A stretch of 64,000 nt of DNA from an uncultured Planctomycetia bacterium (lineage in GTDB: Bacteria > Omnitrophota > Gorgyraeia > Tantalellales > Tantalellaceae): NCBI GenBank assembly GCA_964409365.1, contig CAYPCX010000006.1:21012-85011 (forward strand). The letters run 5' to 3'. Both the position numbers and the translations under genes were made by a program. Below the pieces are notes generated by a model. It searched no databases. It was not told the DNA's origin and saw only the letters and a program-made list of their open reading frames with translations. Positions within the stretch are counted from its first letter, which is position 1; every line of letters starts with the position of its first letter. Of this stretch, positions 31,514 to 52,276 are shown one piece after another.

Positions 31514-31915
31514 TCAAGTCACAGGTTGCAGGTTCCAGGTCGCGGATTCCAGGCTTTTTAGAACCGCTTGCCGGAAACAATGCAGTTTCTTGCCCAAGTT
31601 TTCATATCTATTAAACAACGACTCGAATAATTCCCTTTGTTTTAGCGAACTGGTATCAAATAATAACTGAAGATGTTCTTTTGTTTCATCAACAGAAGCA
31701 AGCGCATATGTAAGGTATTTTACATATTCAAGTTTATATTTTTTCCGGCCAAAACCTTCCACGATCAAAGCAGGAATAGATTTCGAAGATCTTCTAACCT
31801 GACTTCCCCCTTCATACACTTCAAATCTAGGCAATCTTTTCAACGTCATTTCGTGTATTTCAACTGCCAGCTTATGGGAAAGGTCATATATTTCCAAATT
31901 TTGATAACTTTGCAT
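31514..31915 (-). CDS. four-helix-bundle protein (23S rRNA intervening-sequence protein family)
   Basis: 133 aa with the characteristic LEIYDLSHKLAVEIHEMT ... YALASVDETKEHL pattern. AGGAG SD 14 nt upstream of the ATG. Flanked on both sides by heptamer arrays. Confidence 0.7.
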   Translation of the reverse strand: MQSYQNLEIYDLSHKLAVEIHEMTLKRLPRFEVYEGGSQVRRSSKSIPALIVEGFGRKKYKLEYVKYLTYALASVDETKEHLQLLFDTSSLKQRELFESLFNRYENLGKKLHCFRQAVLKSLESATWNLQPVT

Positions 31916-31924
31916 AATATATCA

Positions 31925-32117
31925 AAACTCCTCGCCTGACTTGCGACTTGTGACTTGCGACCTGCGACTTGCGACCTGCGACTTGTGATACACACACATA
32001 TATAGACACCTTTTTTCATTTTTTCTTGAAAATAACTTAAAACTTGGGGCTTGCAACTTGGCGCCTGAGACTTGCGACCTGCGACTTGAGACCTGAGACC
32101 TGCGACCTGCGACTTGA
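31925..32117. repeat. heptamer tandem array (gacttgc/gacctgc units) with an AT-rich centre, between alr and the four-helix-bundle gene
   Basis: gacttgc gacttgt gacttgc gacctgc ... cttgcga cctgcga cttgaga cctgaga. The track ORF 31846..32121 is a translation of these repeats. Confidence 0.8.
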
Positions 32118-35356: not shown

Positions 35357-35520
35357 GTATATTCTGGGGACACGTCTGGTCGTCTACATGTCGTTCACAC
35401 AGACGTGTCCCCAGAACCTCAGTTTTGTCAATCTACATGTCGTTCACACAGACGTGTCCCCAGAACCTCAGTTTTGTCAATCTACATGTCGTTCACACAG
35501 ACGTGTCCCCAGAACCTCAG
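35357..35520. repeat. family-A hairpin element, three tandem modules (49-bp period)
   Basis: One left arm (CTGGGGACACGTCTG) followed by three copies of ctacatgtcgttcaca-CAGACGTGTCCCCAG-aacctcag(tt), separated by ttgtcaat. The mtnA stop codon TGA lies in the last aaccTCAg flank. Confidence 0.9.
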
Positions 35521-36551
35521 TCCCCTATCATTCGTACTACTTTGCTCCTATTGGGCTTCCTTATAACCCCTTTTTCCGTGATGATCGCGGTGATAAGCCT
35601 GGCCGGCGTGACGTCAAAAGCGGGGTTCACGACATCGACCTTTTTCGGCGTAATGAACTTCCCGTTCACTTTTTTCACCTCAAGCGCGGGCCGTTCTTCA
35701 ATAGGGATGGACTTCCCGTTTTTCAGCGAAAGATCAAAAGTGGAAGCGGGCGCGGCCACATAGAACGGCACACGGTGAAACGCGGCAATCACTGACAAAC
35801 TGTACGTCCCTATCTTGTTAGCCGTATCTCCGTTAGCCGCTATACGGTCCGCCCCGACCACTATAGCGTCTATTTTCCCTTCCGCCATCAGCGAAGCGGC
35901 CATGTTGTCGCATAAAAGGACCGTGGGGACGCCTTCCCGCATGAGCTCCCAGGCCGTAAGGCGGGCACCCTGCAGGACGGGACGCGTCTCGTCCGCGTAC
36001 ACCTTTTTTATCTTTTTCCTGGCCGAAAATATCACTCCAAGCGCCGTGCCATACCCGCCGGTCGCCAGGCCGCCGGCGTTGCAGTGGGTAAGGACCCGCG
36101 CCGCCCTCGGCAGGAGCTTTTTCCCGTTCTTACCTATCGCGCGGCAGATCTTCACGTCTTCCCTTAGAACAGCGTGAGCCTCGTCAAGTATCAGGCGCTT
36201 CAGTTCCCTGACGGGCCTGGCCCTGTTCGTGTCGACCACGAAAGCCATCCGCTCCAGCGCCCAGAAAAGGTTCCTGGCGGTAGGACGCGAACTGGAAAGG
36301 TACTTGATCGTCGCGGCAAGCTCTTTCCTGAACGGCCGGATATCCTTTGCCCGGCTTTTCCTTATTCCCAGGTACACGCCGTACGCCCCGGCTATACCTA
36401 TCGCCGGAGCGCCTCTTATCTTCATGTGCCTGATAGCCGCCCACATATCCCCGCGGGTCCGGCAAGTCACGTATTTAAGTTTACCCGGCAGGAGCCTCTG
36501 GTCGATAAGTTCCACCCTGCCGTTCTTCCACCTTATAGGTTCCACGTTCAT
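35517..36551 (-). CDS. mtnA: methylthioribose-1-phosphate isomerase / eIF-2B-related family
   Basis: MNVEPIRWKNGRVELIDQRLLPGKLKYV N-terminus typical of MtnA. Confidence 0.75.
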   Translation of the reverse strand: MNVEPIRWKNGRVELIDQRLLPGKLKYVTCRTRGDMWAAIRHMKIRGAPAIGIAGAYGVYLGIRKSRAKDIRPFRKELAATIKYLSSSRPTARNLFWALERMAFVVDTNRARPVRELKRLILDEAHAVLREDVKICRAIGKNGKKLLPRAARVLTHCNAGGLATGGYGTALGVIFSARKKIKKVYADETRPVLQGARLTAWELMREGVPTVLLCDNMAASLMAEGKIDAIVVGADRIAANGDTANKIGTYSLSVIAAFHRVPFYVAAPASTFDLSLKNGKSIPIEERPALEVKKVNGKFITPKKVDVVNPAFDVTPARLITAIITEKGVIRKPNRSKVVRMIGD

Positions 36552-39461: not shown

Positions 39462-41047
39462 TGTATCCTCGGGAATAACGGCTCTTCTTTGGCCACCTTC
39501 GTGCCGGCGGGGAATCTCCTCCAGTCGGATCCGTCTTTCGGCTCTTTGATCTCTTTCCTGATCTCTTCTTTCCCGAGGGCCTTATCCAGATCGCCTAACC
39601 CCAGTTGGGCCCACATCCTGCGCGCTGTCGTCGGCATGAAGGGGAAAAAAGCTATAGCGCATACCCTCAAGACCTCCAGTAGATCCGCCAGTATCAGCTT
39701 TATCGAACCCGTATCGCCTTTTTTCGAATATTCCCAGGGAGCGGAGACCTCGATATACTTGTTCGCCGCCCCGACCAGCAGCATTATATGTTCCAGCGCC
39801 TCTTTTATCTCGAGTTCCGGCCGGTCCACATACTCGCTCCTCATCTTCGGGAAAAGACCGGGTATACCCTCTTTCAGGGCGTTACTGCGCTTAACTTGCT
39901 CTCTGTCGGCTTTCTCGAGCGAGACCTCCGGAGCGGTGCCGTCGAAATATTTTTCCACCATGGTAAGGGTCCTGTTCAGGAGGTTGCCCAGATCGTTCGC
40001 CAGGTCGCTGTTATATAAAGTGACGAAGGCGTCCTCGCTGAATACACCGTCATTACCGAAAATAACGGCTTTTAGAAGAAAATACCGTATCGGGTCGACC
40101 CCGTATTTCGCCTTCAGTTCCAGGGGATCCACGATATTGCCTTTTGATTTCGACATCTTGTCCTCACCCATCTTCCACCAGCCATGGGCAAAGATCACTT
40201 CCGGCATCTCGAGGCCGGCGCTCTTGAGCATTATCGGCCAGTACACGGCATGGTGCCTCAGTATATCCTTCGCTATGACATGGAACTTAGGCGGCCACAC
40301 GTCGTCGAACTTCCTGCCGGCGGCCGTGATGCCCGAAATATAGTTGATCAGCGCGTCGAACCAGACATACAGGACATAATTCTTGTCGAACGGCAGCTCA
40401 ACCCCCCACGCCATCCTCTCTTTAGGCCGTGATATACAAAGATCGTTCAGCCCCTCTTTCAGGAATCCCAGGACCTCGTTCTTTCTGAACTTCGGCATTA
40501 TGAAACCCGGGTTGTCGTTTATATACTCCACCAGCCAGTCCTGATATTCGCTCATTTTGAAAAAATAGTTCTTTTCCTTTATGTGCTCGACCGGCCTCTT
40601 ACACTCGGGACATATGCCGTCCTCCGCCTGCGTCTCCGTCCAGAAGGTCTCGCAGGGAGTGCAGAACCAGCCGTCATATTCACCCAGATAAATGTCGCCC
40701 TTTTCATATATTCTCTGCAGGAACCGCTGCACCTGCTCTTCATGTTCCTTGTCCGTGGTGCGTATGAAATGATCATACTCCACGTCAAGCTCTTTCCAGA
40801 CCTTCTTAAAATTGGGCACTATCGTATCGACGAAATCCTTCTCTTTGCCTTTTTCGAAGCCCGCCGCCAGGCAGGCCTCTTCGATCTTCTCGCCGTGCTC
40901 GTCGGTCCCCGTGAGAAAAAACACCTCGTCACCGAGCATCTTGTGATACCGGGAAAGAGCGTCCACGGCGATCTGCGTGTACGCGTGGCCTATATGAGGA
41001 TTCGCATTGACGTAATAAATAGGGGTGGTGATATAGAACTTGCCCAT
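39458..41047 (-). CDS. metG: methionyl-tRNA synthetase (short form)
   Basis: HIGH (PHIGHAY) and KMSKS motifs and Zn knuckle. Start at MGKFYITTPIYY (41047), which has a GGAGGAGG SD. Confidence 0.9.
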   Translation of the reverse strand: MGKFYITTPIYYVNANPHIGHAYTQIAVDALSRYHKMLGDEVFFLTGTDEHGEKIEEACLAAGFEKGKEKDFVDTIVPNFKKVWKELDVEYDHFIRTTDKEHEEQVQRFLQRIYEKGDIYLGEYDGWFCTPCETFWTETQAEDGICPECKRPVEHIKEKNYFFKMSEYQDWLVEYINDNPGFIMPKFRKNEVLGFLKEGLNDLCISRPKERMAWGVELPFDKNYVLYVWFDALINYISGITAAGRKFDDVWPPKFHVIAKDILRHHAVYWPIMLKSAGLEMPEVIFAHGWWKMGEDKMSKSKGNIVDPLELKAKYGVDPIRYFLLKAVIFGNDGVFSEDAFVTLYNSDLANDLGNLLNRTLTMVEKYFDGTAPEVSLEKADREQVKRSNALKEGIPGLFPKMRSEYVDRPELEIKEALEHIMLLVGAANKYIEVSAPWEYSKKGDTGSIKLILADLLEVLRVCAIAFFPFMPTTARRMWAQLGLGDLDKALGKEEIRKEIKEPKDGSDWRRFPAGTKVAKEEPLFPRIQ

Positions 41048-41051
41048 CGCC

Positions 41052-41861
41052 TTACTTCTTCTCCTCCTCCTTGAGCTCATCCATCCTGATGTCCTTGATC
41101 TTGCCGTCTCCCAGGTCGATAGTGGCCGTTCTTTTCAGAGGGTTGACCGCCATCACCCTGCCTTTGCCCCAGGAGGTCTTGATCTCCTTGCCTATCCTGG
41201 GCATCCCTTTCGAACACTCCTTGTAGCATTCGAACTCGTAGCTCAAACAGCACATGAGCCGCCCGCAGAGCCCCGATATCTTGGAAGGGTTAAGCGGCAG
41301 GTTCTGCACCTTGGCCATTTTTATCGTGACGGGGTCGAAATCCTTGAGGAACGACATACAGCAGAGCTCCCTGCCGCACGGTCCGTGACCCCCCAGCATC
41401 CTGGCTTCGTCCCTTACGCCGATCTGCCTGAGCTCTATACGCACCCTGAATATGCTCGCCAGGTCGCGGACCAGGTTCCGGAAGTCCACCCGGCTATCCG
41501 AGGTGAAATAGAATATTATCTTTGACCTGTCAAAGGAATATTCCGCGTCCACCAGTTTCATCGGCAGTTTATGTTCGCGGATCTTTTTCTCGCAAAGGTT
41601 CATCAGGTCTTTCGTCTTGGCCTTGTTCTTGGCTATCTGCTTCTCGTCCCAGGGGTTGGCTTTCCTGATGATCTTCCTCAGCGGCTTCTCGATCGAACTT
41701 ATATCGATGACCTTTTCTTCCATGGAGACGATCTCGCCGTATTCAAGCCCCCTGTCGGCCTCGACGATGACCTTCTCGCCCGCTTCGAACTTCATCCCGT
41801 TGGTCAGAAAATACTTTATCTCTCCGGCAGCCCTTAGCTGCACCTGTATGATCTCGTACAT
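41052..41861 (-). CDS. ricT: PSP1 C-terminal domain protein (RicT/YaaT-like)
   Basis: PSP1 family, 269 aa. Position between holB and metG matches Bacillus synteny. Confidence 0.7.
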   Translation of the reverse strand: MYEIIQVQLRAAGEIKYFLTNGMKFEAGEKVIVEADRGLEYGEIVSMEEKVIDISSIEKPLRKIIRKANPWDEKQIAKNKAKTKDLMNLCEKKIREHKLPMKLVDAEYSFDRSKIIFYFTSDSRVDFRNLVRDLASIFRVRIELRQIGVRDEARMLGGHGPCGRELCCMSFLKDFDPVTIKMAKVQNLPLNPSKISGLCGRLMCCLSYEFECYKECSKGMPRIGKEIKTSWGKGRVMAVNPLKRTATIDLGDGKIKDIRMDELKEEEKK

Positions 41862-42012
41862 GTTAACTCCCCATCTATCTGTATCAGAAGTCAGATGTCA
41901 GAAGACAGAAATCAGATATTAGGTGTTTGCTGTTGGAGGACACTATAATCTTTTTTCTGTCCTCTGTTCTCTGTCTTCTGTTTTCTGTCCTCTGTTCTCT
42001 GAGACTTTTCGT
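41862..42012. repeat. heptamer array sharing a 5' module with the 27992-28188 array
   Basis: cagaagtcagatgtcagaagacagaaatcagatattaggtgtttgctgtt ... tctgtcctctgttctctgtcttctgttttctgtcctctgttctctgagac. Confidence 0.8.
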
Positions 42013-42984
42013 TCACTTGAGCGCACTCGGCAGTACCTGCGCCACGAGTTTCGGGTTCACGTTACCCGCCAGAGCCCGTCTGAGCCTTGTCAACTTTCCG
42101 ACTATATCGTAGATCTTTTCCAGGGAATATCCCCTGTAATACCCGTACATATCCGTGCTTCCCAGGCCCCTGTCCAGGGCCATCTCCTCAAGCCCTTCCT
42201 TTCCCAGGGCTATGTCACGGAAGAACATGGTCAAAAGTTCCAGGTCTTCCAGAAGAGAATTCCTGTCGTCCGTGTTCCAGTTCATGCAGGAAGCGTTGTC
42301 CTCTTTCGCTATTTTTCCCATGATACCCGCCAGTTCCCTTTTCTCGTCCAGGAGGCCCTCTTCTATCATCTCAAGCGCTTTCCCCGGAGATCCCTGGGAA
42401 AAACACGCGAGGAATTCAGCCGTATCCCTGTCGGTCCCCGATTCCCGCATGATCATATTCCGCGCTTCGTCCGTCCGGAGCGACCGGAACCTCACTTCCG
42501 AACAACGCGAAAGGACCGTCGGAAGAAGCATCTCCTTTTTGCTCGAGATAAGTATGAGCATGGACTGCGCCGGGGGTTCTTCCAGTATCTTCAAAAGCGC
42601 GTTCGAAGCTTCCACCGTCATCATATGGGCGTCCTCTATCACGCAGACGTTGACCGGAGCCTCGTACGGCTTGAGGCTCAGCGCTTCCCTGGCGCGGCGC
42701 ACTTCCTCTATCTTGATCTTCCTGTTCTTCTCCGGCTTTATCCAGTTGAGGTCGGGGTGGTCCAGGGCCCTGATCCTCCTGCATGACGGGCAGACGCCGC
42801 ACGCTTCGGCCGAGGTCTTATCAGAGCAGATAAGCTCCATCAGGAAGGCCTTTGCCGTAAGCGCGCGTCCCACGCCCTCGGGCCCGAAGAACAGGTAGCT
42901 TGAAGCCACCCGCCCGGCGGACAGGCTGCCGCGCAGATATCTTACGGCGTTATCCTGCCCTTTTATGTCTCTCAACAGCACCAT
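42013..42984 (-). CDS. holB: DNA polymerase III delta' subunit
   Basis: AAA+ clamp-loader fold (FFGPEGVGR Walker A-like, SRC motif). Confidence 0.8.
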   Translation of the reverse strand: MVLLRDIKGQDNAVRYLRGSLSAGRVASSYLFFGPEGVGRALTAKAFLMELICSDKTSAEACGVCPSCRRIRALDHPDLNWIKPEKNRKIKIEEVRRAREALSLKPYEAPVNVCVIEDAHMMTVEASNALLKILEEPPAQSMLILISSKKEMLLPTVLSRCSEVRFRSLRTDEARNMIMRESGTDRDTAEFLACFSQGSPGKALEMIEEGLLDEKRELAGIMGKIAKEDNASCMNWNTDDRNSLLEDLELLTMFFRDIALGKEGLEEMALDRGLGSTDMYGYYRGYSLEKIYDIVGKLTRLRRALAGNVNPKLVAQVLPSALK

Positions 42985-43603
42985 AAACCTCTTCCTTCAC
43001 CGAACGATACGTGCGGTCCTTGTCCTCGTGCACGTCTATTATCCTGAACCTGTCGGGGGACGCTTCAGCCATAGCAAGGTACCCCTCGCGGACCTTCTCA
43101 TGGAACCCGACGCTCCTTTTCTCCATCCTGTCGGCAGGCCCGACCTTACCGGCGCGCTCCAGGCCTGTCACGACGTCGACATCGAGCAGTATCGTAAGAT
43201 CGGGGGCAAGCCCTCCTGTCGAAAAACCGTCGACCTTCTTCACGAAATCCATGTCCATGCCGAGACCATATCCCTGATAAGCGAACGTCGCGGTATTATA
43301 ACGGTCGCATATCACTATCTTACCGGCTTCGATGGCGGGGCGGATGACCTCTTCGACATGCTGTGCCCTATCCGCTTCGAAAAGAAAAAGTTCCGAGCCG
43401 TTTCCCATCGCCAGGCCGTCCTTCATGAGAAGTATTTCCCGTATCTTCCCGCCCAGCGGCGTGCCCCCCGGTTCGGCCGTGTATACGGCCTCATAACCGT
43501 CGGAGGAAAGCTCCTCGTACACGCGCTTCGCCTGCGTACTTTTGCCGCAGCCTTCAGGGCCCTCGAACGCTATGAAAAGGCCTTTCGTCAGCTTCTTCTC
43601 CAT
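42950..43603 (-). CDS. tmk: thymidylate kinase
   Basis: FIAFEGPEGCGKST P-loop. 217 aa. Confidence 0.9.
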   Translation of the reverse strand: MEKKLTKGLFIAFEGPEGCGKSTQAKRVYEELSSDGYEAVYTAEPGGTPLGGKIREILLMKDGLAMGNGSELFLFEADRAQHVEEVIRPAIEAGKIVICDRYNTATFAYQGYGLGMDMDFVKKVDGFSTGGLAPDLTILLDVDVVTGLERAGKVGPADRMEKRSVGFHEKVREGYLAMAEASPDRFRIIDVHEDKDRTYRSVKEEVYGAVERHKRAG

Positions 43604-45060
43604 ACCGGTCCCTCCGGGGTATCTTCGACGACCACTCCCATATCCGCGAGCCGTCCGCGTATCCTGTCGGCCCCGTCGTAATCTTTTTCCTTTCTGGCCG
43701 TCTCCCTCTCCGCTACCAGGCGCTCTATCTGATCCGTGTCCTCTTCTTCAACCTGAACCGGCCTAAGGGACAGGCCGAGTATATCCGCGAAGCGCAGGAT
43801 ATAATTCTTCACCGCGCCGGCAAGATACGCTTTGCCCCCGGCGTCCAATCCTTCATCAGCGAGGGAATCGTTACCGGTCCTCACCGCCTCGAAGAGAACC
43901 GAGAGGGCCATAGGCGTATTAAAATCGTCGTTCATCGCTTCGTCGAACTTTTCCTGCAGGCCGTTGACCGTCTCCTGGGCTTTTTGCAAGATATCCGCGT
44001 CCCGCGGGGCTTTTTTTCCGGCCGTCTCTTTCATCAGCCGGTCGACCTTGCCGAAGAAGATCATCACCCTTTCCTTGGAACGCTTCGCCTCTTCTATTTT
44101 CGCGTCGGTATAATCCATCGGGCTGCGGTAATGGCTGTTCAGGAACGCCAGTTTCAAGAGGTCCGGGTCTTTGTGCCTTTCAAGAAAATCGGAAATCGTG
44201 ATGTAGTTACCGAGAGATTTTGACATCTTTTCGCCGCCGACGCTCAAAAGGCCGTTATGTATCCAGTAATTCGCGAAATCCCGGCCGGTAGCGGCTTCCG
44301 CCTGGGCTATCTCGTTCTCGTGATGCGGGAAAATAAGGTCGAGCCCGCCCCCGTGAATATCGAACTGCGCGCCCAGGAGGTTCGTGCTCATCACCGAACA
44401 CTCTATATGCCACCCGGGCCTCCCGTCTCCCCAGGGACTCTCCCAGGAAGGCTCGTAAGGCTTGGCTTCCTTCCATAACGCGAAATCCAGCGGATGCCGT
44501 TTTTTCTCGTCCACGTCTATACGCACGCCGTGCATCATCTCGTCCTTGTCCTGTTTTGACAGTTTGCCGTAATCGGGAAAACTTTCCACGCTGAAGTAGA
44601 CGTCCCCTCCGGCGACATAGGCGAAACCTTTGTCGATCAAGGTCTTTATGAACATTATCATCTGGTCTATGGCCTCGGTGGCCTTCGGCTCGACGACAGG
44701 CGGTTTTATCCCCAGGACATCCATCTGCTGGTGATATATGTCAAGATAGCGGACGGCGACCTCGCTGACCCTCTCCTTAAGCCTGCCGGATGACGCGTTC
44801 TCCCCTATTTCCGTGAGCTCCTCGGTGGCCTTCTTTATTATTTTGTCGTCCACGTCGGTCACGTTCCTCACGAACAGCACCTCGAACCCGGCGTACTCTA
44901 AATATCTCCTGATGATATCGAAGACATAAGCGCTCCTGGCATGCCCGATGTGAGGCACGTCATAAACGGTGGGCCCGCAGACATACATCCTTACATTATC
45001 CCGTTCTATAGGCCGGAACTCTTCCTTTTTCCTCGTAAGTGTATTGTATATCGTTATCAT
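43588..45060 (-). CDS. cysS: cysteinyl-tRNA synthetase
   Basis: HIGH (PHIGHARS) and KMSKS motifs. Start taken at MITIYNTLTRKKEEF (45060). Confidence 0.85.
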   Translation of the reverse strand: MITIYNTLTRKKEEFRPIERDNVRMYVCGPTVYDVPHIGHARSAYVFDIIRRYLEYAGFEVLFVRNVTDVDDKIIKKATEELTEIGENASSGRLKERVSEVAVRYLDIYHQQMDVLGIKPPVVEPKATEAIDQMIMFIKTLIDKGFAYVAGGDVYFSVESFPDYGKLSKQDKDEMMHGVRIDVDEKKRHPLDFALWKEAKPYEPSWESPWGDGRPGWHIECSVMSTNLLGAQFDIHGGGLDLIFPHHENEIAQAEAATGRDFANYWIHNGLLSVGGEKMSKSLGNYITISDFLERHKDPDLLKLAFLNSHYRSPMDYTDAKIEEAKRSKERVMIFFGKVDRLMKETAGKKAPRDADILQKAQETVNGLQEKFDEAMNDDFNTPMALSVLFEAVRTGNDSLADEGLDAGGKAYLAGAVKNYILRFADILGLSLRPVQVEEEDTDQIERLVAERETARKEKDYDGADRIRGRLADMGVVVEDTPEGPVWRRS

Positions 45061-45112
45061 ATCCACTATCCAGAATCGAACTTCAAGTTTGTAACCAGTA
45101 ACCAGTGAAAAA

Positions 45113-45190
45113 AGCATAGCTCAAAGGGCATAGCGCACAGCGTAAAACTGTAACACTTTGCTCTTTGCGCTTAACTCTTTGCAATCAAAG
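45113..45190. repeat. 78-bp repeat, left copy of an inverted pair bracketing cysE-ispF-ispD
   Basis: Its reverse complement matches 47134-47212 at about 72/78 positions. Built from gcatagc and ctttgcN heptamers. Confidence 0.85.
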
Positions 45191-45208
45191 ACCCAACACT
45201 CACCGGCG

Positions 45209-45940
45209 TTAATCTTTCTTTTCCCTTTCTTCCTTGGCCTTCTCGTGGTGGTCCTGGATCTCCGATTCGATATGGTCTATCTCATGCTGCAGTCTTTCCA
45301 GGGCCTGTTGAAGCGGGTCGGGGAGGGACGAATGGTCCAGGTTAACGCCGCCGGGCAGGCGCTTGCCCCGTCTTTTGGCTACCCTGCCGGGAACGCCGAC
45401 CACCGTGGAGTCGTCCGGGACGTCGCGCAATACCACCGCGTTGGCGCCGACCATGACGTTATTCCCGATGTTTATGTTGCCGAGTATCTTCGCGCCGGCT
45501 CCCACCACGACGTTGTTCCCGAGAGTGGGATGGCGTTTACCTCTCTCCTTGCCCGTCCCACCGAGCGTAACGCCCTGGAAAAGCGTCACGTTGTCGCCGA
45601 TCACGGCCGTTTCACCTATCACCACGCCCATACCGTGGTCTATAAAAAGGCCGTGCCCTATCTGCGCGCCGGGGTGTATCTCTATACCTGTCACCCACTT
45701 GACCAGTTGTGACAGGTAACGCGACAGGAACGGCATCTTCATCTTGCTGAGCCTGTGCGTTATCCTGTAGGCCGTGATGGCATGAAAACCCGAATAAGTG
45801 AAGACCACTTCCACATAACTTGTAGCGGCGGGGTCCCTATCCATGGCCGCTTTTATCTCGTCCTCGAAAAAAAGGCGCATCGTCATGTAATATATCACTA
45901 AAAACACCGCGATCCATATCAATACGGTCAAAAAGATCAT
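45209..45940 (-). CDS. cysE: serine O-acetyltransferase
   Basis: Hexapeptide-repeat left-handed beta-helix and SAT N-terminal domain. ATGA overlap with the ispF stop. Confidence 0.8.
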   Translation of the reverse strand: MIFLTVLIWIAVFLVIYYMTMRLFFEDEIKAAMDRDPAATSYVEVVFTYSGFHAITAYRITHRLSKMKMPFLSRYLSQLVKWVTGIEIHPGAQIGHGLFIDHGMGVVIGETAVIGDNVTLFQGVTLGGTGKERGKRHPTLGNNVVVGAGAKILGNINIGNNVMVGANAVVLRDVPDDSTVVGVPGRVAKRRGKRLPGGVNLDHSSLPDPLQQALERLQHEIDHIESEIQDHHEKAKEEREKKD

Positions 45941-46419
45941 CGCGTATCCTCCTCTTCCAGCAACACCACCACATACGCGGCTACGGCTTCACCTTTGCCC
46001 ACTGCGCCGAGCTTTTCGGCTGTCTTGGCTTTTATGCTGATGTTGCCTCCGGATGTTCCCAACATGTCCGCTATCACGCCGGCCATTTCCTCGCGATACG
46101 GACCGATCTTCGGCTCTTCGGCTATGATCACGCAGTCAAGGTTATGGACCGACAGGCCTTTATCGTCCATGAGCCCCTTGACGTCCTTCAAAAGTTCTTT
46201 ACTGGATATGTCCTTGTACTTCGGGTCGGTGTCGGGGAATCTCATGCCGATATCCCCCTTGCTCAGCGCCCCGAGAATGGCGTCGCATATCGCGTGAAGA
46301 AGGGCATCGCCGTCGGAATGGCCTTCGGGCCCCTTGGGAAAAGGGATGTTCACCCCTCCCAGGACCATCGGCCGCCCCTCGGCAAGCCTGTGTATGTCAA
46401 ACCCTATCCCTATTCTCAT
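45937..46419 (-). CDS. ispF: 2-C-methyl-D-erythritol 2,4-cyclodiphosphate synthase
   Basis: MRIGIGFDIHRL N-terminus. 160 aa. Confidence 0.9.
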   Translation of the reverse strand: MRIGIGFDIHRLAEGRPMVLGGVNIPFPKGPEGHSDGDALLHAICDAILGALSKGDIGMRFPDTDPKYKDISSKELLKDVKGLMDDKGLSVHNLDCVIIAEEPKIGPYREEMAGVIADMLGTSGGNISIKAKTAEKLGAVGKGEAVAAYVVVLLEEEDTR

Positions 46420-47092
46420 TCAATATCGCCTCGGCGACGGTAAGATCCGCGGGTACCGTCACTTTTATGTTCGTCACATCACCCATGACCATGCGTACCT
46501 TATGCCCCATGCGCTCTACAAGACACGAATCATCCGTGAGGGCCTTCCCCCTGGAAGCGCCATACGCCTTCTTTATGATACCGTACCTGAAAGCCTGCGG
46601 CGTCTGGGCTTCCCAGAGCTTCTTCCGGTCGGGCGTGCCTTCTATAACGTTGCCTTTTCCCACGCTTTTTATCGTGGCGGTGCACGGCACGCCGACCACC
46701 GCGGCGCCGTGGGCCGCGGCCGAATCGACCGCCGCCCGTATGACGGGTTCCGTGATAAAAGGCCGTACCCCGTCATGTATGACGACTATGTCATCGTTTT
46801 CGGCCTCTATCGCTTCTATGCCGTTGTTTACCGATCCCGTCCTGGAATCCGCGCCGGGAAAAATACCCGCGATCTTGCCGAACCCGTGCAGGGCTACCAG
46901 TTCCGCGGCCTTGTCGATATATTTCTCTTTTACTACAAGGACCACTTCGTCCACGGCGGCCGACCCGACAAAACGCTCCAGGACGTAAGCCAGTATGGGC
47001 TTCCCTCCCAGTTCAAGGAAGGGTTTGGCGTCCTGGCCGCTTTCCATCCTCTTGCCGGAACCGGCAGCGGCTATCAAAGCTATCGTCTTCAT
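46397..47092 (-). CDS. ispD: 2-C-methyl-D-erythritol 4-phosphate cytidylyltransferase
   Basis: IALIAAAGSGKRM N-terminus. 231 aa. Confidence 0.9.
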   Translation of the reverse strand: MKTIALIAAAGSGKRMESGQDAKPFLELGGKPILAYVLERFVGSAAVDEVVLVVKEKYIDKAAELVALHGFGKIAGIFPGADSRTGSVNNGIEAIEAENDDIVVIHDGVRPFITEPVIRAAVDSAAAHGAAVVGVPCTATIKSVGKGNVIEGTPDRKKLWEAQTPQAFRYGIIKKAYGASRGKALTDDSCLVERMGHKVRMVMGDVTNIKVTVPADLTVAEAILNENRDRV

Positions 47093-47133
47093 CTCTATAT
47101 TCTTGATACTCGATACTTGCTACAATGTTGAAT

Positions 47134-47212
47134 CTTTGATTGCAAAGAGCTAAGCGCATAGAGCAAAGAATTACAGTTTTACGCTGTACGCTATGCCCTT
47201 TGCGCTATGCGT
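47134..47212. repeat. 78-bp repeat, right copy (inverted relative to 45113-45190)
   Basis: ctttgattgcaaagagctaagcgcatagagcaaagaattacagttttacgctgtacgctatgccctttgcgctatgcg. Confidence 0.85.
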
Positions 47213-47259
47213 TTTCACTGGTACTTGTTACTTTTTCCTTGTTCCTTGTTACTTGTTAC

Positions 47260-48288
47260 TCACTGATGCCTTTTTTGCTCGGGCCTCTCGGGCCTTTCAA
47301 CAAGATTGGCGAATATCATCCTGCCGGCGGAGGTCTGCAGCACGCTCGTGACGGAAACGTTCACGGTCCTTCCTATACACTTTCTCGCGTTATCGACCAC
47401 TATCATGGTCCCGTCGTCCATGAAGGCCACGCCCTGGTTCCGCTCTTTTCCCTCTTTCTTGATGTAAGCCGTCATCTGTTCTCCCGGGAACACTACCGGG
47501 CGCAGCGCGTTGGCCAGGTCGTTGATGTTCAGGACCGTTACCCCTTCAAGTTTGGCCACCTTGTTGAGGTTGAAATCGTTCGTCAGGACCCGGCAATCGA
47601 GTATCCTTGCCAGGCGTATGAGCTTCGCGTCGACCTCCTTGACGTCCGGGAGGTTCTCCTCATGTATTATCACTTCCGTCTGGGGCATGCCTTTCAGGCG
47701 GTTCAGCATGTCCAGCCCCCTGCGTCCCCTGTTACGCTTGGTGTCATCGGAACTGTCCGCTATCTGGTGCAGCTCCTGCAGGACGAACCTCGGGATGACG
47801 AGCCTGCCCTCGAGGAAACCCGTCTCGCAGATACCGGCGATCCTGCCGTCGATTATCACGCTGGTATCCAGAAGAAGCAGCTGGTCCTTCTGGTCCTCGC
47901 GAGAAAACCGCACGTACGGTATCACCAGGTTGAACTCGTCCTTGCCTTTTAGCGCGATGACCATGCCCAGATAGCAGAAGACAAGCGTGAACGCTATCTG
48001 CAGCACGGAATAGATCACCTCATCCATGGGTATCAGGCGGACTATCAGGGTGACCATCCACGCCATGAAAAAACCGAAAACCAGGCCGAAAGCCGCCGCC
48101 GACAAGTTACGCAGCGACACGTGCTTCAACTTGACCTCCAAAAGTATCAGGAGCAACGCGCAGACGAACCCGGCACCGGCGCCGATCATGGCGCCCTCCC
48201 TTGAAAGATCTGTCAAGAGAGACCCGACGTAATACCCGCATACTACGCTCAGGATCAGAAAAAATGCCCTTATGAACCTTTCAGTCAT
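47260..48288 (-). CDS. yacL: PIN/TRAM domain membrane protein (YacL-like)
   Basis: N-terminal TM helices, central PIN (LLLDTSVIIDGR) and C-terminal TRAM domain. Confidence 0.75.
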   Translation of the reverse strand: MTERFIRAFFLILSVVCGYYVGSLLTDLSREGAMIGAGAGFVCALLLILLEVKLKHVSLRNLSAAAFGLVFGFFMAWMVTLIVRLIPMDEVIYSVLQIAFTLVFCYLGMVIALKGKDEFNLVIPYVRFSREDQKDQLLLLDTSVIIDGRIAGICETGFLEGRLVIPRFVLQELHQIADSSDDTKRNRGRRGLDMLNRLKGMPQTEVIIHEENLPDVKEVDAKLIRLARILDCRVLTNDFNLNKVAKLEGVTVLNINDLANALRPVVFPGEQMTAYIKKEGKERNQGVAFMDDGTMIVVDNARKCIGRTVNVSVTSVLQTSAGRMIFANLVERPERPEQKRHQ

Positions 48289-48329
48289 CAGTTATCACAC
48301 ATCCTTTCCTAAAAAAACATATAAATGGC

Positions 48330-49082
48330 TTAACGCGTACTTACATCCGTACCGCGTGATTCCTCTTCTCTTCTCTGTCTATCTATTCTTTCCCTCTCGC
48401 GCCTCGACGGCTTGCTCAGGAGCTTCCAGGGATGCGCTTTGATGTCCGCGACGAAATCCTCGAGGTCGTCATAGATCTTCTCTTCCACCAGGAGCTTCCC
48501 TACGGTGCCTTCGCCGTTCTTCAGCCGGCCGAAGATGACCTCCAGGTCGTTGTATATCGTGTCGTCCACGAGAAGCTTCCCGAGGGTGCCCTGGCCTTCC
48601 TTGACGTTCTTCATTATGTCCGTGAACGTGCTTACCAGCTCCGTCATCTTCTCCATCTGCTGTCCCACGTTCACCGGGTTCTTGCCTATTATGGTATCCC
48701 CTTCCTTGAGAAAACGGTCGGATGTGCCGGGAGTGAGCTCGAGGTACTGCTCCCCGAGCAGGCCCAGGGTATTTATCCTGGCGACCGCGTCCGTCTCGAC
48801 GCGGGCGTCGCCTTTTACCCATACCTCCAGTTTGACACGGGTCCTGCCGACTTCCTCGTCATAATAGACCTTTATGTCCTTGACCTCGCCGACATGCACG
48901 CCGGCCAGCCGCACCGGGGCGTTCTCGGTTATACCGTTAACGTAATCGAAGATGGTGCCTACGCGGTACCCTCTTTCGAACCCGTAAAAATCACTCACCG
49001 AAAAGACGATCAAGAACATGAGAAAGATACCTATCCCCATGAACAAACCCACTTTCAGCTCAAGTTTTTCGTCCCTGAACAT
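48330..49082 (-). CDS. mlaD: MCE-domain protein (MlaD-like)
   Basis: N-terminal TM anchor plus MCE domain. 250 aa with a charged C-terminal tail. Confidence 0.75.
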   Translation of the reverse strand: MFRDEKLELKVGLFMGIGIFLMFLIVFSVSDFYGFERGYRVGTIFDYVNGITENAPVRLAGVHVGEVKDIKVYYDEEVGRTRVKLEVWVKGDARVETDAVARINTLGLLGEQYLELTPGTSDRFLKEGDTIIGKNPVNVGQQMEKMTELVSTFTDIMKNVKEGQGTLGKLLVDDTIYNDLEVIFGRLKNGEGTVGKLLVEEKIYDDLEDFVADIKAHPWKLLSKPSRRERERIDRQRREEESRGTDVSTR

Positions 49083-49105
49083 ACGTCACCCCTTTTCTAT
49101 ATTAC

Positions 49106-49933
49106 CTAAACTCCGGCCGCCGGCCGCGGGGTGTGATGATCACCGATCGTAGTGATCGGCCCTTTGGCCTCACCGCTTATGAACTGTCTTACTATACTGT
49201 TGGACGAATTCCTGATCTCGTCCGGTGTCCCTATCTCGATTATGTTCTTATCGTACAGCATCGCTATCCTGTCGGCTATCTTGTACGCGCTTTTCATGTC
49301 GTGCGTCACAGTTATTGACGTCGTTTTCAGCGTGTTATGCAGGTGTCTGATAAGTTCGTTTATTATATCGCCCATTATGGGGTCCACGCCCGTGGTAGGC
49401 TCGTCGAAAAGTATGATCTTGGGCGTCATACTGATGGCCCTTGCCAGCCCCACTCTCTTTTTCATGCCGCCTGAAAGCGCGGCGGGCTTGGCATGCTCTA
49501 TGCCTTCCAGCCCCACCATCCTGAGGCTTTCGGCGACACACTCCTTTATCTCGTCAAGCGTCAGGTTAGTGTATTCGAACAGCCGGAACCCCACGTTCTC
49601 GAGGACGCTTAAGGAATCGAAAAGCGCCGCCCCCTGGAAAAGCATGCCGAAGTCCATCCTTATCCTGTTAAGTTCCTTGCTGCTCATATTGGTTATGTCC
49701 GTACCTTCCACCACGACCTTGCCGGAATCGGGCCTCAGAAGGCCGATGATATGCTTGAGAAGAACGCTCTTACCGCAGCCCGAACGGCCGATGATCACTA
49801 TGGATTCCCCTTTGTAGATCGTCAGGTCCAGGCCCTCGAGCACCTGGAGACCGCCGAAAGACTTGTACACGTTCTTCAATTCTATTATGGGCTCCCGTCT
49901 GGGCTCCTGTACCGGCTCTTTCCGTGTGTCCAT
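49106..49933 (-). CDS. mlaF: ABC transporter ATP-binding protein (MlaF-like)
   Basis: Walker A GRSGCGKS, LSGGMKKR signature and Walker B. Confidence 0.8.
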   Translation of the reverse strand: MDTRKEPVQEPRREPIIELKNVYKSFGGLQVLEGLDLTIYKGESIVIIGRSGCGKSVLLKHIIGLLRPDSGKVVVEGTDITNMSSKELNRIRMDFGMLFQGAALFDSLSVLENVGFRLFEYTNLTLDEIKECVAESLRMVGLEGIEHAKPAALSGGMKKRVGLARAISMTPKIILFDEPTTGVDPIMGDIINELIRHLHNTLKTTSITVTHDMKSAYKIADRIAMLYDKNIIEIGTPDEIRNSSNSIVRQFISGEAKGPITTIGDHHTPRPAAGV

Positions 49934-49940
49934 ATCCTCC

Positions 49941-50750
49941 TTATCTGAAAATAAAGTAGAACATCGCCGTGAAGAAACAGTCGGCGATTATTATCAAGAT
50001 GAAACTCCTTACCACGCTGGAGGTCGTCGCCCGCCCCACGCCTTCGGCGCCGCCTTCCGCGTTCATGCCTTCAAAACACGCTATCACGCATATGATCACC
50101 GCGAACGATACGCTCTTTACCAGGCCCGTCATCACGTCCTTTATTTTAAGCGGATCCCAGGTCATCTTCACGTACATCGCGTGCGTTATATTAAGCTTTC
50201 CCACTCCGACGAGGTACCCGCCTATGATCCCGAAGATATCCGCATAGATCGTCAAAAGCGGCACCATGACAAGAAGCGCGAGGAACCTCGGCACTACCAG
50301 GTATTGTATCGGGTTGGTCGAAAGCGTCTCGAGCGCGTCCACCTGTTCTGTGACCCTCATGGTGCCGAGTTCCGCGGTGATGGCGGCCCCGCAGCGCCCG
50401 GCGACTATGAGCGCGGTAAGCACGGGCCCCAGCTCACGGGTGAGCGACAGCGCCACGAGCGAAGCGATATACATCTCGGCCGAGACCTTCTGCATCTGGT
50501 AAGCGCTCTGCAGAGCCAGGACTATACCGGTAAAAAGGCTTATAAGCAGCACTATAGGCGCGCTGGCAACCCCTATACTGTTCATCTGCTCCAGTATCTG
50601 CCATTTACGGTGGGGCGGCGCGATGGTCCAGAAAATGGTCCTCGCCAGAAGTATCGCTACCCCGCCCATGTATACGAAAAAATTGCGGATCTTATTCCGC
50701 GTCAACCTGAATAGCTTCAGCAAAATATCTTTTATTGATACCGGGAACAT
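49941..50750 (-). CDS. mlaE: ABC transporter permease (MlaE-like)
   Basis: 269 aa polytopic permease of the MlaE/YrbE family. Confidence 0.75.
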   Translation of the reverse strand: MFPVSIKDILLKLFRLTRNKIRNFFVYMGGVAILLARTIFWTIAPPHRKWQILEQMNSIGVASAPIVLLISLFTGIVLALQSAYQMQKVSAEMYIASLVALSLTRELGPVLTALIVAGRCGAAITAELGTMRVTEQVDALETLSTNPIQYLVVPRFLALLVMVPLLTIYADIFGIIGGYLVGVGKLNITHAMYVKMTWDPLKIKDVMTGLVKSVSFAVIICVIACFEGMNAEGGAEGVGRATTSSVVRSFILIIIADCFFTAMFYFIFR

Positions 50751-50761
50751 ATTAACCCCTT

Positions 50762-52276
50762 TTAGAATTCCATTTTATGCTCCAGCCCGAGGAAATCGTC
50801 GTCCTCGTCCAACTGGAACTTGAGATGGTTGCCTTCTTTGTCAAGTTCGTACTCCATACCCAGCTCTTGCTGATCGGACCTCTCATCCACCGCCTTCTGC
50901 CGCCTCTTATCGTCCTGCATGTTCGTTATGATCGTCAGGCGGTCCCTTCGCGCCTTGACCTGGTGTTCGTCCTCTTCTTTCGTTATCTGCCAATCTTCCC
51001 AGACGGCCACCTTGTTGTCGGTATCAAAAACGACTCCTTCGAACACCTTGTTATCCTTCATCCTGCTGAAATCCATCTCGCCGCTGATAAGTATGCACCC
51101 GCCGTCTTTCACCACGCGGGAACCTTCCACCCCTATGACGGGCAGACGTCCCTTAAGGCTGGCCGAGACGGACTTGAATTCCATGGGCCCCAACACGCCT
51201 TGCCCGATGTAAAGCCGGCCTTGTACGTCGGCTTCTTCTATCGGACCTTCAAAATTTATTTCACCCTCCGCCTTTCCGAATATTACCGTCTGGTTGTCTC
51301 CCAGCATCTGGGCGAGCTCCGCGAGTTCCAGGTCTTTGAGCAGCACTTTCAGACGCGCGGGATAGGGCTCGACCGTCTTTACTTCCCCTATCAGCGTCAG
51401 GCCCTCGCCCCATTTCACGTTATCCAGGTGCAAGATCTTTTTCTCCGGGGAGAACCCGCCCCCGATGACGACCTTCCAGAACGGCCTTTTGTTGATAACA
51501 AGGTTCTCGGCCCTGGCCAGGAAAAGCGGCATGCCCGCGTCCTTGTATGAGATCCACACATCGCCTATTATCTCCGTACCGTAAATGCCTACCTTGTCCA
51601 GCCGCGCGTAAACCTTGACGTCATTGCCCTCCTCTATGGCCGCTTTGATCTTGACGTGCCCCTTTTTGCCCTTCAGAGGCAGGAATTCGAGCTCCAGCGC
51701 GCGCCCCGAAGGATCGAGCGTCCCCGTCACCTTCATGCTTCCGTCCCACAGCATATCACAGTCGTACCTGCCGTCTTCTCTTCTGGTGAAAAGGCCCTTC
51801 ATGCTCCTTTTCGTCCTGTCCCCGAAAACCACGGGCGAGATCTCGCCGTTCAGCTCTACTTCGTTCCGGCGTCTTTCCAGTTTTATGTCTCCCCGGACAA
51901 AGGGATTGCTGTCACTGAAATATACGTTCACGTACTTGAGCTCTTGCTCGTCTTCCGACAGTAACCCGAGCCGCTCCAGGACCACCCGCCACAGACGGTA
52001 GGAGATCTCCATCTTCTCGAGACCGAAGACCTCATTTTCCTTATCTTTCCGGGCGCTGAACCTCACGTCGCGAAGCACCATGTCGTGTATCACCCCGCCG
52101 CGGATCCCGCCTATATCCACCGACATCTTGTCGCCCAGAAATCCCGCGACCTTGCTCTCCACCTGGTATTTCATCAGGAACGGCTCCTGGGCGGCCACCG
52201 CGTAAACGGCCACACCCGCCAGGGCAAAGCCGAGGAGCTTTTTCCTGAAATAAGGATGGAACAAAAACCTTCTCAT
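50762..52276 (-). CDS. hypothetical exported/anchored protein (504 aa) leading the mlaEFD operon; start codon abuts the clpC stop (TAGATG... read on minus)
   Basis: N-terminal signal anchor (LLGFALAGVAVYAVAA), predicted beta-rich body and acidic C-terminus. No family recognised by eye. Confidence 0.5.
   Translation of the reverse strand: MRRFLFHPYFRKKLLGFALAGVAVYAVAAQEPFLMKYQVESKVAGFLGDKMSVDIGGIRGGVIHDMVLRDVRFSARKDKENEVFGLEKMEISYRLWRVVLERLGLLSEDEQELKYVNVYFSDSNPFVRGDIKLERRRNEVELNGEISPVVFGDRTKRSMKGLFTRREDGRYDCDMLWDGSMKVTGTLDPSGRALELEFLPLKGKKGHVKIKAAIEEGNDVKVYARLDKVGIYGTEIIGDVWISYKDAGMPLFLARAENLVINKRPFWKVVIGGGFSPEKKILHLDNVKWGEGLTLIGEVKTVEPYPARLKVLLKDLELAELAQMLGDNQTVIFGKAEGEINFEGPIEEADVQGRLYIGQGVLGPMEFKSVSASLKGRLPVIGVEGSRVVKDGGCILISGEMDFSRMKDNKVFEGVVFDTDNKVAVWEDWQITKEEDEHQVKARRDRLTIITNMQDDKRRQKAVDERSDQQELGMEYELDKEGNHLKFQLDEDDDFLGLEHKMEF

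What the first reader, a model, noticed from the sequence alone, without database searches (positions are those of the whole stretch)
45113..47212. 78-bp inverted repeats (~92% identical) bracket the cysE-ispF-ispD block
The segment 45113-45190, when reverse-complemented, matches 47134-47212 at about 72 of 78 positions. The pair encloses exactly cysE, ispF and ispD. In the otherwise conserved Firmicutes-type order (yacL-ispD-ispF-gltX-cysE-cysS), gltX is missing precisely inside this bracket. The inverted copies could mediate inversion or excision of the 1.9-kb segment, could be two oppositely oriented insertions of a small mobile or repeat element, or could form a very long-range mRNA stem. 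Each copy is itself heptamer-structured (gcatagc, ctttgcN).
Basis: seen in the sequence. Interest (0 to 1): 0.6.

Follow-up and report, generated by a model that had tools for sequence, protein, structure and literature searches.

The report
Two copies of a dispersed hairpin repeat
The inverted repeats around cysE-ispF-ispD are real, but they are two worn copies of a small hairpin-forming repeat that also sits between other genes of this uncultured Omnitrophota bacterium, so the bracket looks incidental.

Summary

The arms are not unique to this block. Three more copies (94-99% identical in the ~87-nt core) lie on another contig from the same ENA and JGI metagenome assemblies, between unrelated housekeeping genes and in both orientations.

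Arm B is closer to those copies (3-4 core mismatches) than to its partner arm A (7 mismatches plus an indel). Substitutions in A and B break the element's own 23-bp hairpin without compensation.

Four related Omnitrophota loci keep the order PIN-ispD-ispF-cysE-cysS with no gltX. Two of them have 0-26 nt spacers where the arms sit. So the missing gltX is ancestral, and the arms were inserted or expanded in this lineage.

No recombinase or transposase occurs in ~80 kb around the block. Every assembly shows the same orientation. Contig ends inside arm B are explained exactly by 31-mers shared with the other copies.

The heptamer texture is common to most intergenic spacers here and in the closest relatives. 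A long-range RNA duplex is physically possible but has no supporting evidence.

Verdict: an ordinary new family of small intergenic hairpin repeats.

The parts
45091..45198 (+). Arm A: repeat copy in 'forward' orientation on the + strand (antisense to the mRNA), in the cysE-cysS spacer. It is the most diverged of the five known copies.
   Evidence: blastn 108-nt match to arm B, E 2e-34; nhmmer E 1.6e-40 to the family model; 5-7 core mismatches to every other copy
45105..45191 (+). Arm A core (87 nt). Weakened main hairpin about 45118-45171 and a 6-bp hairpin TCTTTG-CAAT-CAAAGA at 45176-45191.
   Evidence: RNAfold -23.0 kcal/mol forward and -29.9 reverse, against -36 to -38 for consensus copies. 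Four of 29 consensus pairs are broken and none is compensated.
45091..45106 (+). Short heptamer tract (GTAACCA x2.3) at the 'head' of arm A
   Evidence: TRF
47126..47231 (-). Arm B: repeat copy in 'forward' orientation on the minus strand (sense in the mRNA), in the PIN/yacL-ispD spacer
   Evidence: blastn; nhmmer E 2.8e-47; only 3-4 core mismatches to copies C and D on L014. It shares an exact 37-mer (47132-47168) and 40-mer (47171-47210) with L004/L014 copies.
47133..47218 (-). Arm B core (86 nt). Main hairpin about 47149-47210 and 6-bp hairpin 47133-47148.
   Evidence: RNAfold -28.8/-29.1 kcal/mol. One broken pair and one wobble relative to the consensus.
47222..47260 (.). Heptamer tract (TACTTGT x5.6) at the 'head' of arm B, running up to the stop codon of the PIN gene
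   Evidence: TRF
45209..47092 (-). Enclosed genes cysE (45209-45940), ispF (45937-46419) and ispD (46397-47092). They overlap one another, so there is no internal spacer.
   Evidence: NCBIfam TIGR01172 (1.5e-74), TIGR00151 (2.5e-59), TIGR00453/NF001186 (1e-61); gene calls in L001
43588..45060 (-). cysS, downstream neighbour. The true start is at 45060 (490 aa). The 509-aa ORF reaching 45117 would run into arm A.
   Evidence: TIGR00435 alignment begins at residue 21 of the long ORF. The gene call of 490 aa in L001 maps to window 45060.
47260..48288 (-). PIN-domain (YacL-like) gene, upstream neighbour
   Evidence: Pfam PF27675 YCF81_N + PF01850 PIN on record

Best explanation
The two arms are independent, partly decayed copies of a low-copy dispersed intergenic repeat in an uncultured Candidatus Omnitrophota bacterium.

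The repeated unit is an ~87-nt imperfect palindrome. Its two sides are built from heptamers (GCATAGC GCAAAGG GCATAGC G ... C GCTTTGC TCTATGC GC) and fold into a ~23-bp hairpin, followed by a 6-bp hairpin. In well-preserved copies the unit is flanked by ~50 nt of conserved tail and by variable heptamer tracts, giving ~225-244 nt in all.

Copies sit in spacers between co-oriented genes, in either orientation. ispD, ispF and cysE overlap one another, so the two nearest available spacers are the ones on either side of this block. Two copies landing there, in opposite orientation, produce the 'bracket'.

Shown: the family, its other copies, the hairpin potential, its absence from the same sites in relatives, and the lack of pair-specific similarity.

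Inferred: each copy acts, if at all, locally as an intercistronic DNA/RNA hairpin, in the manner of REP, ERIC or cyanobacterial STRR hairpins (transcript stability, pausing or processing). Also inferred: copies spread by an unidentified route, either a transposase acting in trans or recombination/slippage seeded by the heptamer tracts.
For: (1) Further copies. The JGI contig Ga0180432_10000424 (L004) and its longer ENA counterpart k141_864887 (L014) carry copies C (8180-8354, -), D (10912-11085, +) and E (17819-17993, -), with nhmmer E 1e-50 to 1e-56. They lie between yacP|dus-maf-rSAM|DUF6873...VWA|.
(2) Same source. Both contigs come from ENA assembly ERZ27256770 and from JGI sample 3300017989. 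Both have the same dense period-7 spacer tracts (0.41 and 0.48 arrays per kb, against a median of 0 in 85 loci).
(3) No pair-specific similarity. Core mismatches are A-B 7 (+1 gap), B-C 4, B-D 3, A-D 5, C-D 1.
(4) A and B look decayed. Their substitutions break 4 pairs and 1 pair of the consensus hairpin, with 0 compensatory changes. Their fold energies are -23 to -30 kcal/mol, against -36 to -38 for C, D and E. They also lack the conserved tail that C, D and E share.
(5) Relatives L010, L012 and L013 have 0-26 nt at the two sites and L009 has 36 nt upstream of ispD. No relative has an inverted pair around the block.
(6) No gltX in any relative, so its absence predates the repeats.
(7) Contig-end arithmetic. 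Logan k=31 contigs from two samples end at 47161. This is the end of the last 31-mer specific to arm B, because the first 31-mer shared with L004 starts at 47132. The JGI contig of L004 also ends inside copy D.
(8) Orientation relative to transcription is mixed: B and D are sense, A, C and E are antisense.
Against: Only five copies have been seen, in ~101.5 kb of sequence, and L014 was found by searching for the repeat, so genome-wide copy number and distribution are unknown.

The exact-pattern scan of JGI metagenomes returned only one further contig, so this is not a high-copy family.

Both A/B and C/D occupy adjacent eligible spacers 1.9-2.5 kb apart. All three neighbouring pairs (A/B, C/D, D/E) are inverted. 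Chance alone gives 1/8 for the orientations, and roughly 5% for two random copies in the ~80-kb stretch landing in adjacent spacers, although the finding was selected for exactly that property.

No terminal inverted repeats, target-site duplications or transposase were identified, so mobility is inferred and not shown.

That L014 belongs to the same genome as the window rests on co-occurrence and shared spacer architecture. Tetranucleotide correlation is slightly lower (0.80-0.86) than within the window (0.85-0.94).
Confidence: 0.78

Rival explanations
1. Long-range RNA duplex. The arms are co-transcribed in the PIN-ispD-ispF-cysE-cysS mRNA and pair over ~108 nt. The resulting double-stranded RNA is cut (for example by RNase III), as happens with the stems flanking 16S and 23S rRNA. 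This would uncouple the expression or stability of the ispDF-cysE segment from its neighbours. The C/D pair would do the same for dus-maf-rSAM.
For: All genes are on one strand with no predicted strong terminator between them. The RNAduplex energy for B x A is -166 kcal/mol, against -61 for the two local folds together; for C x D it is -271. Two loci each have an inverted pair around three genes. NEMIS/Correia hairpins are proposed RNase III targets (PMC2229807).
Against: There is no selection for complementarity: A and B differ at 10 positions plus 2 indels, and B is closer to C, D and E than to A. D also pairs equally well with E, 6.7 kb away, so pairing partners are not specific. Each arm folds locally as soon as it is made, about 1.9 kb of transcription before its partner exists (inference from co-transcriptional folding). 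Relatives manage the same operon without the arms. Co-transcription is untested.
Confidence: 0.12
2. DNA inversion or excision. The inverted arms are substrates for recombination that flips or deletes the 1.9-kb segment.
For: There are inverted arms of 108 nt. Several assemblies break inside the arms.
Against: Inversion would place three essential-pathway genes antisense within their operon. There is no recombinase, invertase or transposase in the window or in 16.5 kb of flanks. The longest exact run shared by A and B is 17 nt, which makes them a poor substrate for homologous recombination. ENA and JGI contigs show the reference order across the whole block, and both Logan contigs show it from ispD through arm A to cysS and holB. 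The contig breaks are fully explained by 31-mers shared with copies on another contig.
Confidence: 0.03
3. Local inverted duplication of one spacer. One arm was copied from the other during a rearrangement that also removed gltX.
For: The arms are close together and inverted. Firmicutes have gltX between ispF and cysE (established gene order in Bacillus subtilis; own knowledge).
Against: Arm B is more similar to copies on another contig than to arm A. Relatives without arms also lack gltX.
Confidence: 0.03

Closest known systems
ERIC / IRU elements of enterobacteria (127-bp imperfect palindromes)
   Same: A small non-coding imperfect palindrome found in spacers inside transcription units, in either orientation, at few to many copies. 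It is predicted to form a long stem-loop in the transcript. ERIC affects the stability of neighbouring mRNA segments in an orientation-dependent way (PMC2229807).
   Different: No sequence relationship and a different phylum. No TA termini, 7-bp terminal repeats or target duplications were recognised here. The arms of this hairpin are made of heptamer units and are flanked by heptamer tracts.
Cyanobacterial STRR heptamer repeats and the TAACTGA heptamer repeats of Beggiatoaceae, cyanobacteria and Bacteroidetes
   Same: 7-nt tandem units are concentrated in intergenic spacers. STRR tracts between hupS and hupL can form a hairpin and are suggested to stabilise transcripts or couple translation (PMC2670836). 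Repeats are abundant, intergenic and of unknown function (PMC4679880). Tract length is polymorphic here too (14-nt difference).
   Different: The heptamer units and the phylum differ. The feature in the finding is not a simple tandem array: it is a ~87-nt composite unit conserved as a whole and dispersed to several loci.
REP / REPIN / BIME elements
   Same: Extragenic palindromes occur in both orientations. REPINs are inverted doublets that fold into hairpins, and decayed singlets are common (PMC3116915). The modular, mosaic spacers seen in L014 recall BIMEs (own knowledge).
   Different: REPs are 20-40 nt and typically number in the hundreds, with a RAYT transposase in the genome. Here the unit is ~87 nt, the copy number looks low, and no RAYT was seen in the ~101 kb available.
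Correia / NEMIS and other bacterial MITEs (RUP, RPE)
   Same: Under 200 bp, non-coding, dispersed and stem-loop forming. NEMIS transcripts are proposed RNase III targets that modulate adjacent genes (PMC2229807).
   Different: The defining terminal inverted repeats, TA target duplication and a matching IS transposase were not found here.
Processing stems flanking 16S and 23S rRNA
   Same: Complementary sequences 1.5-3 kb apart in one transcript enclose a functional segment (own knowledge).
   Different: rRNA stems are conserved and co-vary across species. Here the arms are absent from relatives and show no compensatory change.

Membership tests
Small dispersed intergenic stem-loop repeats (generic class: ERIC/REP/SLS-type) | Several copies at unrelated intergenic sites of one genome | tested here: met
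   Five copies at five spacers on two contigs of the same assemblies. That both contigs are one genome is inferred from co-occurrence in ENA ERZ27256770 and JGI 3300017989 and from shared spacer architecture.
Small dispersed intergenic stem-loop repeats (generic class: ERIC/REP/SLS-type) | Each copy can fold into a stable stem-loop on its own | tested here: met
   Consensus fold of 23 + 6 bp at -32.9 kcal/mol. Single copies fold at -23 to -38 kcal/mol. z about -2.2 for the whole spacers.
Small dispersed intergenic stem-loop repeats (generic class: ERIC/REP/SLS-type) | Occurs in both orientations relative to flanking genes | tested here: met
   B and D are sense; A, C and E are antisense to the surrounding genes
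MITE (Correia, RUP, ERIC as listed in PMC2229807) | Terminal inverted repeats at the element ends | tested here: not met
   The inverted symmetry is internal to the core. The ends of the ~225-244-nt unit shared by C, D and E (heptamer tract on one side...CCTTGGCACCTACAGCGCCCTGACACT on the other) are not complementary.
MITE (Correia, RUP, ERIC as listed in PMC2229807) | Target-site duplication, often TA | tested here: inconclusive
   No direct repeat flanks the similarity boundaries of A or B. The relatives are too diverged (IspD 54-62%) to give an exact empty site.
MITE (Correia, RUP, ERIC as listed in PMC2229807) | A transposase in the genome with matching ends | not testable with these tools
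   No transposase in ~101.5 kb examined. The rest of the genome is not available (genome-contig scan empty).
REP / REPIN | 20-40-nt palindromes at high copy number, with an associated RAYT gene | tested here: not met
   The unit is ~87 nt. The exact 24-base core pattern was found in only one further JGI contig. No RAYT was seen, though the genome is incomplete.
STRR-type heptamer tandem repeats | Tandem 7-nt units concentrated in intergenic DNA | tested here: met
   26 period-7 arrays in the window, 21 of them in the 6% that is non-coding (82% of their bases). This applies to the flanks and texture of the arms, not to the conserved core as a unit.
Site-specific invertible segment (inverton) | Recombinase gene nearby and both orientations present in the population | tested here: not met
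   No recombinase. All assemblies are collinear. Reads could not be examined.
Long-range RNA processing stem | Complementarity maintained by selection (conservation or compensatory change) | tested here: not met
   89% complementarity with 2 indels. Arm B is nearer to non-partner copies. The arms are absent in relatives.
Known RNA families (Rfam 15) | Match at the gathering score | tested here: not met
   Nothing in window 40000-52000. Only sub-threshold miRNA-precursor hairpin matches (23-24 bits against gathering scores of 75-89) on L014 copies.

The most novel reading that the evidence does not exclude
In this Omnitrophota lineage, heptamer-built hairpin modules could form a system of operon punctuation. 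Oppositely oriented copies in neighbouring spacers of one transcript (B/A around ispDF-cysE, C/D around dus-maf-rSAM) would pair over 100-160 nt. A double-strand-specific RNase would then cut the duplex and release the internal gene block as a separately regulated mRNA, an mRNA counterpart of rRNA-operon processing stems. The adjacency and alternating orientation of all three neighbouring pairs would then not be chance.
Probability: 0.08. Interest if true: 0.7.

Novelty: new member of a known kind. Interest (0 to 1): 0.3.

Why it matters
For the finding as stated, it matters little. The bracket is best read as a by-product of a small repeat family landing in the only two spacers around three overlapping genes. 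The supposed link to the loss of gltX does not hold.

Two points have modest wider value. First, repeats of this kind break short-read assemblies of uncultured genomes at predictable places, as shown here to the base. That can be mistaken for structural polymorphism.

Second, the window documents an Omnitrophota lineage whose intergenic spacers are largely built from length-polymorphic heptamer tracts and several hairpin repeat families. My literature searches found this architecture described only for cyanobacteria, Beggiatoaceae and some Bacteroidetes. It could be examined for a shared mutational mechanism or binding protein.

Tried and rejected
- Reference-genome scan: an exact-pattern scan (GCGCTTANCTCTTTGCAATCAAAGA) of 185,579 reference genomes found nothing, so the species is not among them and no genome-wide census was possible.
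- Rfam: scans of the window region and of the L014 copies gave no family.
- Promoter/terminator scan: none was found associated with the arms. The antisense-oriented copies carry a U5-6 run 4 nt after the hairpin. I considered an intrinsic terminator but did not adopt it, because the spacing is atypical and the sense-oriented copies lack it.
- Inversion polymorphism as the cause of contig ends at 47161: rejected after the 31-mer arithmetic.
- Integron attC sites: considered because they are hairpin repeats at gene ends. Rejected because the orientations alternate, the genes are housekeeping with synteny conserved in relatives, and no integrase is present.
- T-box or other cis-regulatory leader for cysS/cysE: rejected because there is no Rfam hit and the two copies have opposite orientations relative to their downstream genes.
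- Local duplication: rejected.
- Failed look-ups: two encoding-contig look-ups failed because the ORF starts were wrong. The corrected ligA start worked.
- Flanks: searches of 7.5 kb to the left and 9 kb to the right of the window found no further copies.
- Distant loci: the core model found nothing in 80 loci from named genomes except one diverged hairpin in L015.
Full report
**1. The observation**

The inverted repeat is real. The repeat finder gives a single inverted pair in 44000-48500, with arms 45109-45198 and 47126-47215 (90 nt, 90% complementary, 1927 nt apart). Gapped blastn extends it to 45091-45198 against 47126-47231: 108 nt, 88.9% identical, two 1-nt indels, E = 2e-34 against the whole window. 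Shuffled versions of the region never exceed 48/78. No third copy lies in the 64-kb window.

**2. Gene context**

All genes here are on the minus strand:
- PIN-domain YacL-like gene, 47260-48288
- ispD, 46397-47092
- ispF, 45937-46419
- cysE, 45209-45940
- cysS, 43588-45060
- then tmk and holB

These assignments rest. ispD, ispF and cysE overlap each other. The only spacers near them are 47093-47259 and 45061-45208, and each holds one arm.

**3. Anatomy of an arm**

Each arm is itself an imperfect palindrome. The consensus of five copies folds into a 23-bp hairpin (GCATAGCGCAAAGGGCATAGCGTACAG / CTGTAACGCTTTGCTCTATGCGCTTAGC), followed by a 6-bp hairpin (TCTTTG CAAT CAAAGA). The hairpin sides are made of heptamer units, and heptamer tandem tracts adjoin the 'head' of each arm.

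This texture is not special to the arms. About half of the window's spacers of 40 nt or more have 7 as their best period. 21 of 26 period-7 arrays, and 82% of their bases, fall in the 6% of the window that is non-coding.

**4. Source organism**

The exact IspD protein is on record in NCBI, JGI, ENA and Logan assemblies. The next best relative is only 62% identical, and the named relatives are Candidatus Omnitrophota MAGs. Contigs from ENA ERZ27256770 and two Logan runs are 100% identical to the window. JGI contig Ga0180432_10000135 maps to the window as contig position = window position + 21063, and it carries the window's version of a 14-nt indel. The window was therefore probably cut from that contig.

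**5. More copies elsewhere**

An exact-pattern scan of the reference genomes found nothing. The same pattern in JGI metagenomes found one contig, Ga0180432_10000424 (L004), from the same sample. L004 shares nothing with the window except two copies of the repeat. These are again mutually inverted (162-nt arms, 94% complementary, 2547 nt apart), and the contig ends inside the second one.

The longer ENA version of that contig (L014, from the same ENA assembly as the window's contig) reads through and shows three copies: C at 8180-8354 (-), D at 10912-11085 (+) and E at 17819-17993 (-). The gene order is yacP |C| dus maf radical-SAM |D| DUF6873 PilZ exbB exbD TPR VWA |E|.

C, D and E share ~225-244 nt: heptamer tracts, the core and a ~50-nt tail. 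A and B retain only the core and a few flanking bases. One flanking module also occurs alone at L014 2373-2420, so the spacers are mosaics of modules. No further copies were found in 7.5 kb left and 9 kb right of the window. The census is five copies in ~101.5 kb.

**6. Is the A/B pair special?**

No. Core mismatches are:

| Pair | Mismatches |
|---|---|
| A-B | 7 (+1 gap) |
| A-C | 6 |
| A-D | 5 |
| B-C | 4 |
| B-D | 3 |
| C-D | 1 |

Arm B is therefore closer to copies on another contig than to its partner. None of the 29 consensus pairs shows a compensatory change. A breaks four pairs and B breaks one. A and B also fold less well (-23 to -30 kcal/mol) than C, D and E (-36 to -38). They look like older, drifting copies.

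Orientation relative to transcription is mixed: B and D are sense, and A, C and E are antisense.

**7. Relatives and gltX**

Loci from four relatives (IspD 54-58% identical; L010-L013) have the order clpC - hypothetical - mlaE - mlaF - mlaD - PIN - ispD - ispF - cysE - cysS - tmk - holB, with no gltX. The closest relative (L009, 62%) is a 3.1-kb contig and shows only mlaD - PIN - ispD and the start of the next gene.

In L010, L012 and L013 the two spacers are 0-26 nt, so the element is absent. No relative has an inverted pair around the block. The absence of gltX therefore predates the repeats and is unrelated to them.

The relatives do share the spacer architecture. Period-7 arrays per kb are 0.96 (L009) and 0.68 (L015), against 0.41 for the window, 0.48 for L014 and a median of 0 over 85 loci. 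One L011/L015 spacer (holB-PSP1) is a hairpin built from the same GCATAGC/GCAAAGN units and matches the family model at E = 3e-13.

**8. Assembly breaks**

Logan contigs (k = 31) from two runs both start at window 47161, inside arm B. The first 31-mer that arm B shares with L004 starts at 47132 (shared 37-mer 47132-47168). The last 31-mer specific to arm B is therefore 47131-47161, which is exactly the contig end. Arms A and B share no run longer than 17 nt. The breaks are repeat-induced graph branching and not evidence of inversion.

**9. Mobility and recombination genes**

The window and its flanks encode only housekeeping functions: LPS synthesis, topA, dprA, amino-acid synthesis, tRNA synthetases, clpC, mla. 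There is no transposase, recombinase, RAYT or gltX.

**10. Mechanism**

The best-supported reading is a small dispersed intergenic hairpin repeat of the kind exemplified by ERIC, REP/REPIN and hairpin-forming cyanobacterial STRR tracts (PMC2229807, PMC3116915, PMC2670836). Its heptamer construction resembles the heptamer repeats described in cyanobacteria and Beggiatoaceae (PMC4679880).

A local role for each copy (transcript stability, pausing or processing) is inferred by analogy and was not tested. How copies spread is unknown. The MITE hallmarks (terminal inverted repeats, target duplications) were not found.

A long-range B-A duplex would be very stable if it formed (-166 kcal/mol against -61 for the local folds). 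It cannot be excluded as a side effect, but nothing indicates selection for it.

**11. Verdict**

The gltX and inversion ideas are not supported. The feature is a new family of a known kind and of low to moderate interest.

The residual oddity is that both A/B and C/D occupy adjacent spacers, and all three neighbouring pairs are inverted. With so few copies, and with a finding that was selected for this property, that is not significant. A genome-wide census would settle it.

Noticed in passing
window 16361-16415, 23368-23472, 35362-35521, 63030-63085: A second, unrelated dispersed hairpin family: TTCTGGGGACAYRTYTGG ... CAGAYGTGTCCCCAGAACCTC, with a ~17-bp stem. It occurs at four sites, all in the same orientation, each ending 10-30 nt upstream of a minus-strand start codon (lpxK, an unnamed gene, a thiL-like gene, ligA). 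At 35383-35521 a 49-nt unit is repeated 2.8 times at 100% identity, and at 23368-23472 the unit is duplicated.
   Followed up: partly
window 574-626 (also L005 12693-12732 vs L006 12693-12746): The heptamer tract (CAAGTAA/CAAGTAT) differs by exactly 14 nt (two units) between the ENA and JGI assemblies. It is the only difference in 20,960 nt. Two Logan contigs also end in this tract. This indicates ongoing slippage.
   Followed up: yes
whole window; L014; L009; L015: Intergenic spacers are largely built from period-7 tandem tracts with many different units. 82% of period-7 bases lie in the 6% of the window that is non-coding. The trait is shared with the closest relatives and absent from most of 80 other loci. 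My literature searches found no description of this for Omnitrophota.
   Followed up: partly
L011 11391-11487 (= L015 13400-13471): A relative with 55% IspD identity has, in its holB-PSP1 spacer, a hairpin made of the same heptamer vocabulary (GCATAGA GCAGAGC GCAAAGA GCATAGC / CGCCATG CGCCATG CGCTTTG CGCTATG). It matches the family model at E = 3e-13, at a non-homologous site.
   Followed up: partly
L009 2653-2975: The closest relative (IspD 62%) has a 323-nt spacer after ispD. It carries an (AGCTGTA)n-type array and its complement 178 nt apart (32 nt, 94% complementary), a long heptamer-built hairpin inside the block that is uninterrupted in the window.
   Followed up: no
L014 3226-3291 and 18227-18293: A third repeated spacer motif (GTGCTCAAACAGTTYTTG ... 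CAACAGCAAAAAAACTG ...), 82% identical over 67 nt, E = 1.5e-15. It lies downstream of an HSP20-like gene and upstream of a small DUF3096 gene, and is not present in the window.
   Followed up: no
L014 2373-2420, 8136-8157, 11109-11143; window 1305-1346: The module GACACTTTGACACTAGTGAGCG... occurs alone in one spacer and as part of the tail of copies C and D. Related AGTGTCAA/ACTTTGAC octamer repeats occur in a window spacer. The spacers are mosaics of reusable modules.
   Followed up: partly
window about 60853-60881, minus strand: A perfect sigma-70-type promoter consensus (TTGACA, 17 nt, TATAAT) lies upstream of lysS. The likely true lysS start is ATG at 60774, after a GGAGG site. The true ligA start is ATG at 63000, confirmed by an exact database match.
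   Followed up: partly
window 31514-31915: A small gene of the '23S rRNA intervening sequence protein' family (PF05635) sits between ilvB and alr, flanked on both sides by spacers; the 31916-32117 spacer is strongly heptamer-periodic.
   Followed up: no
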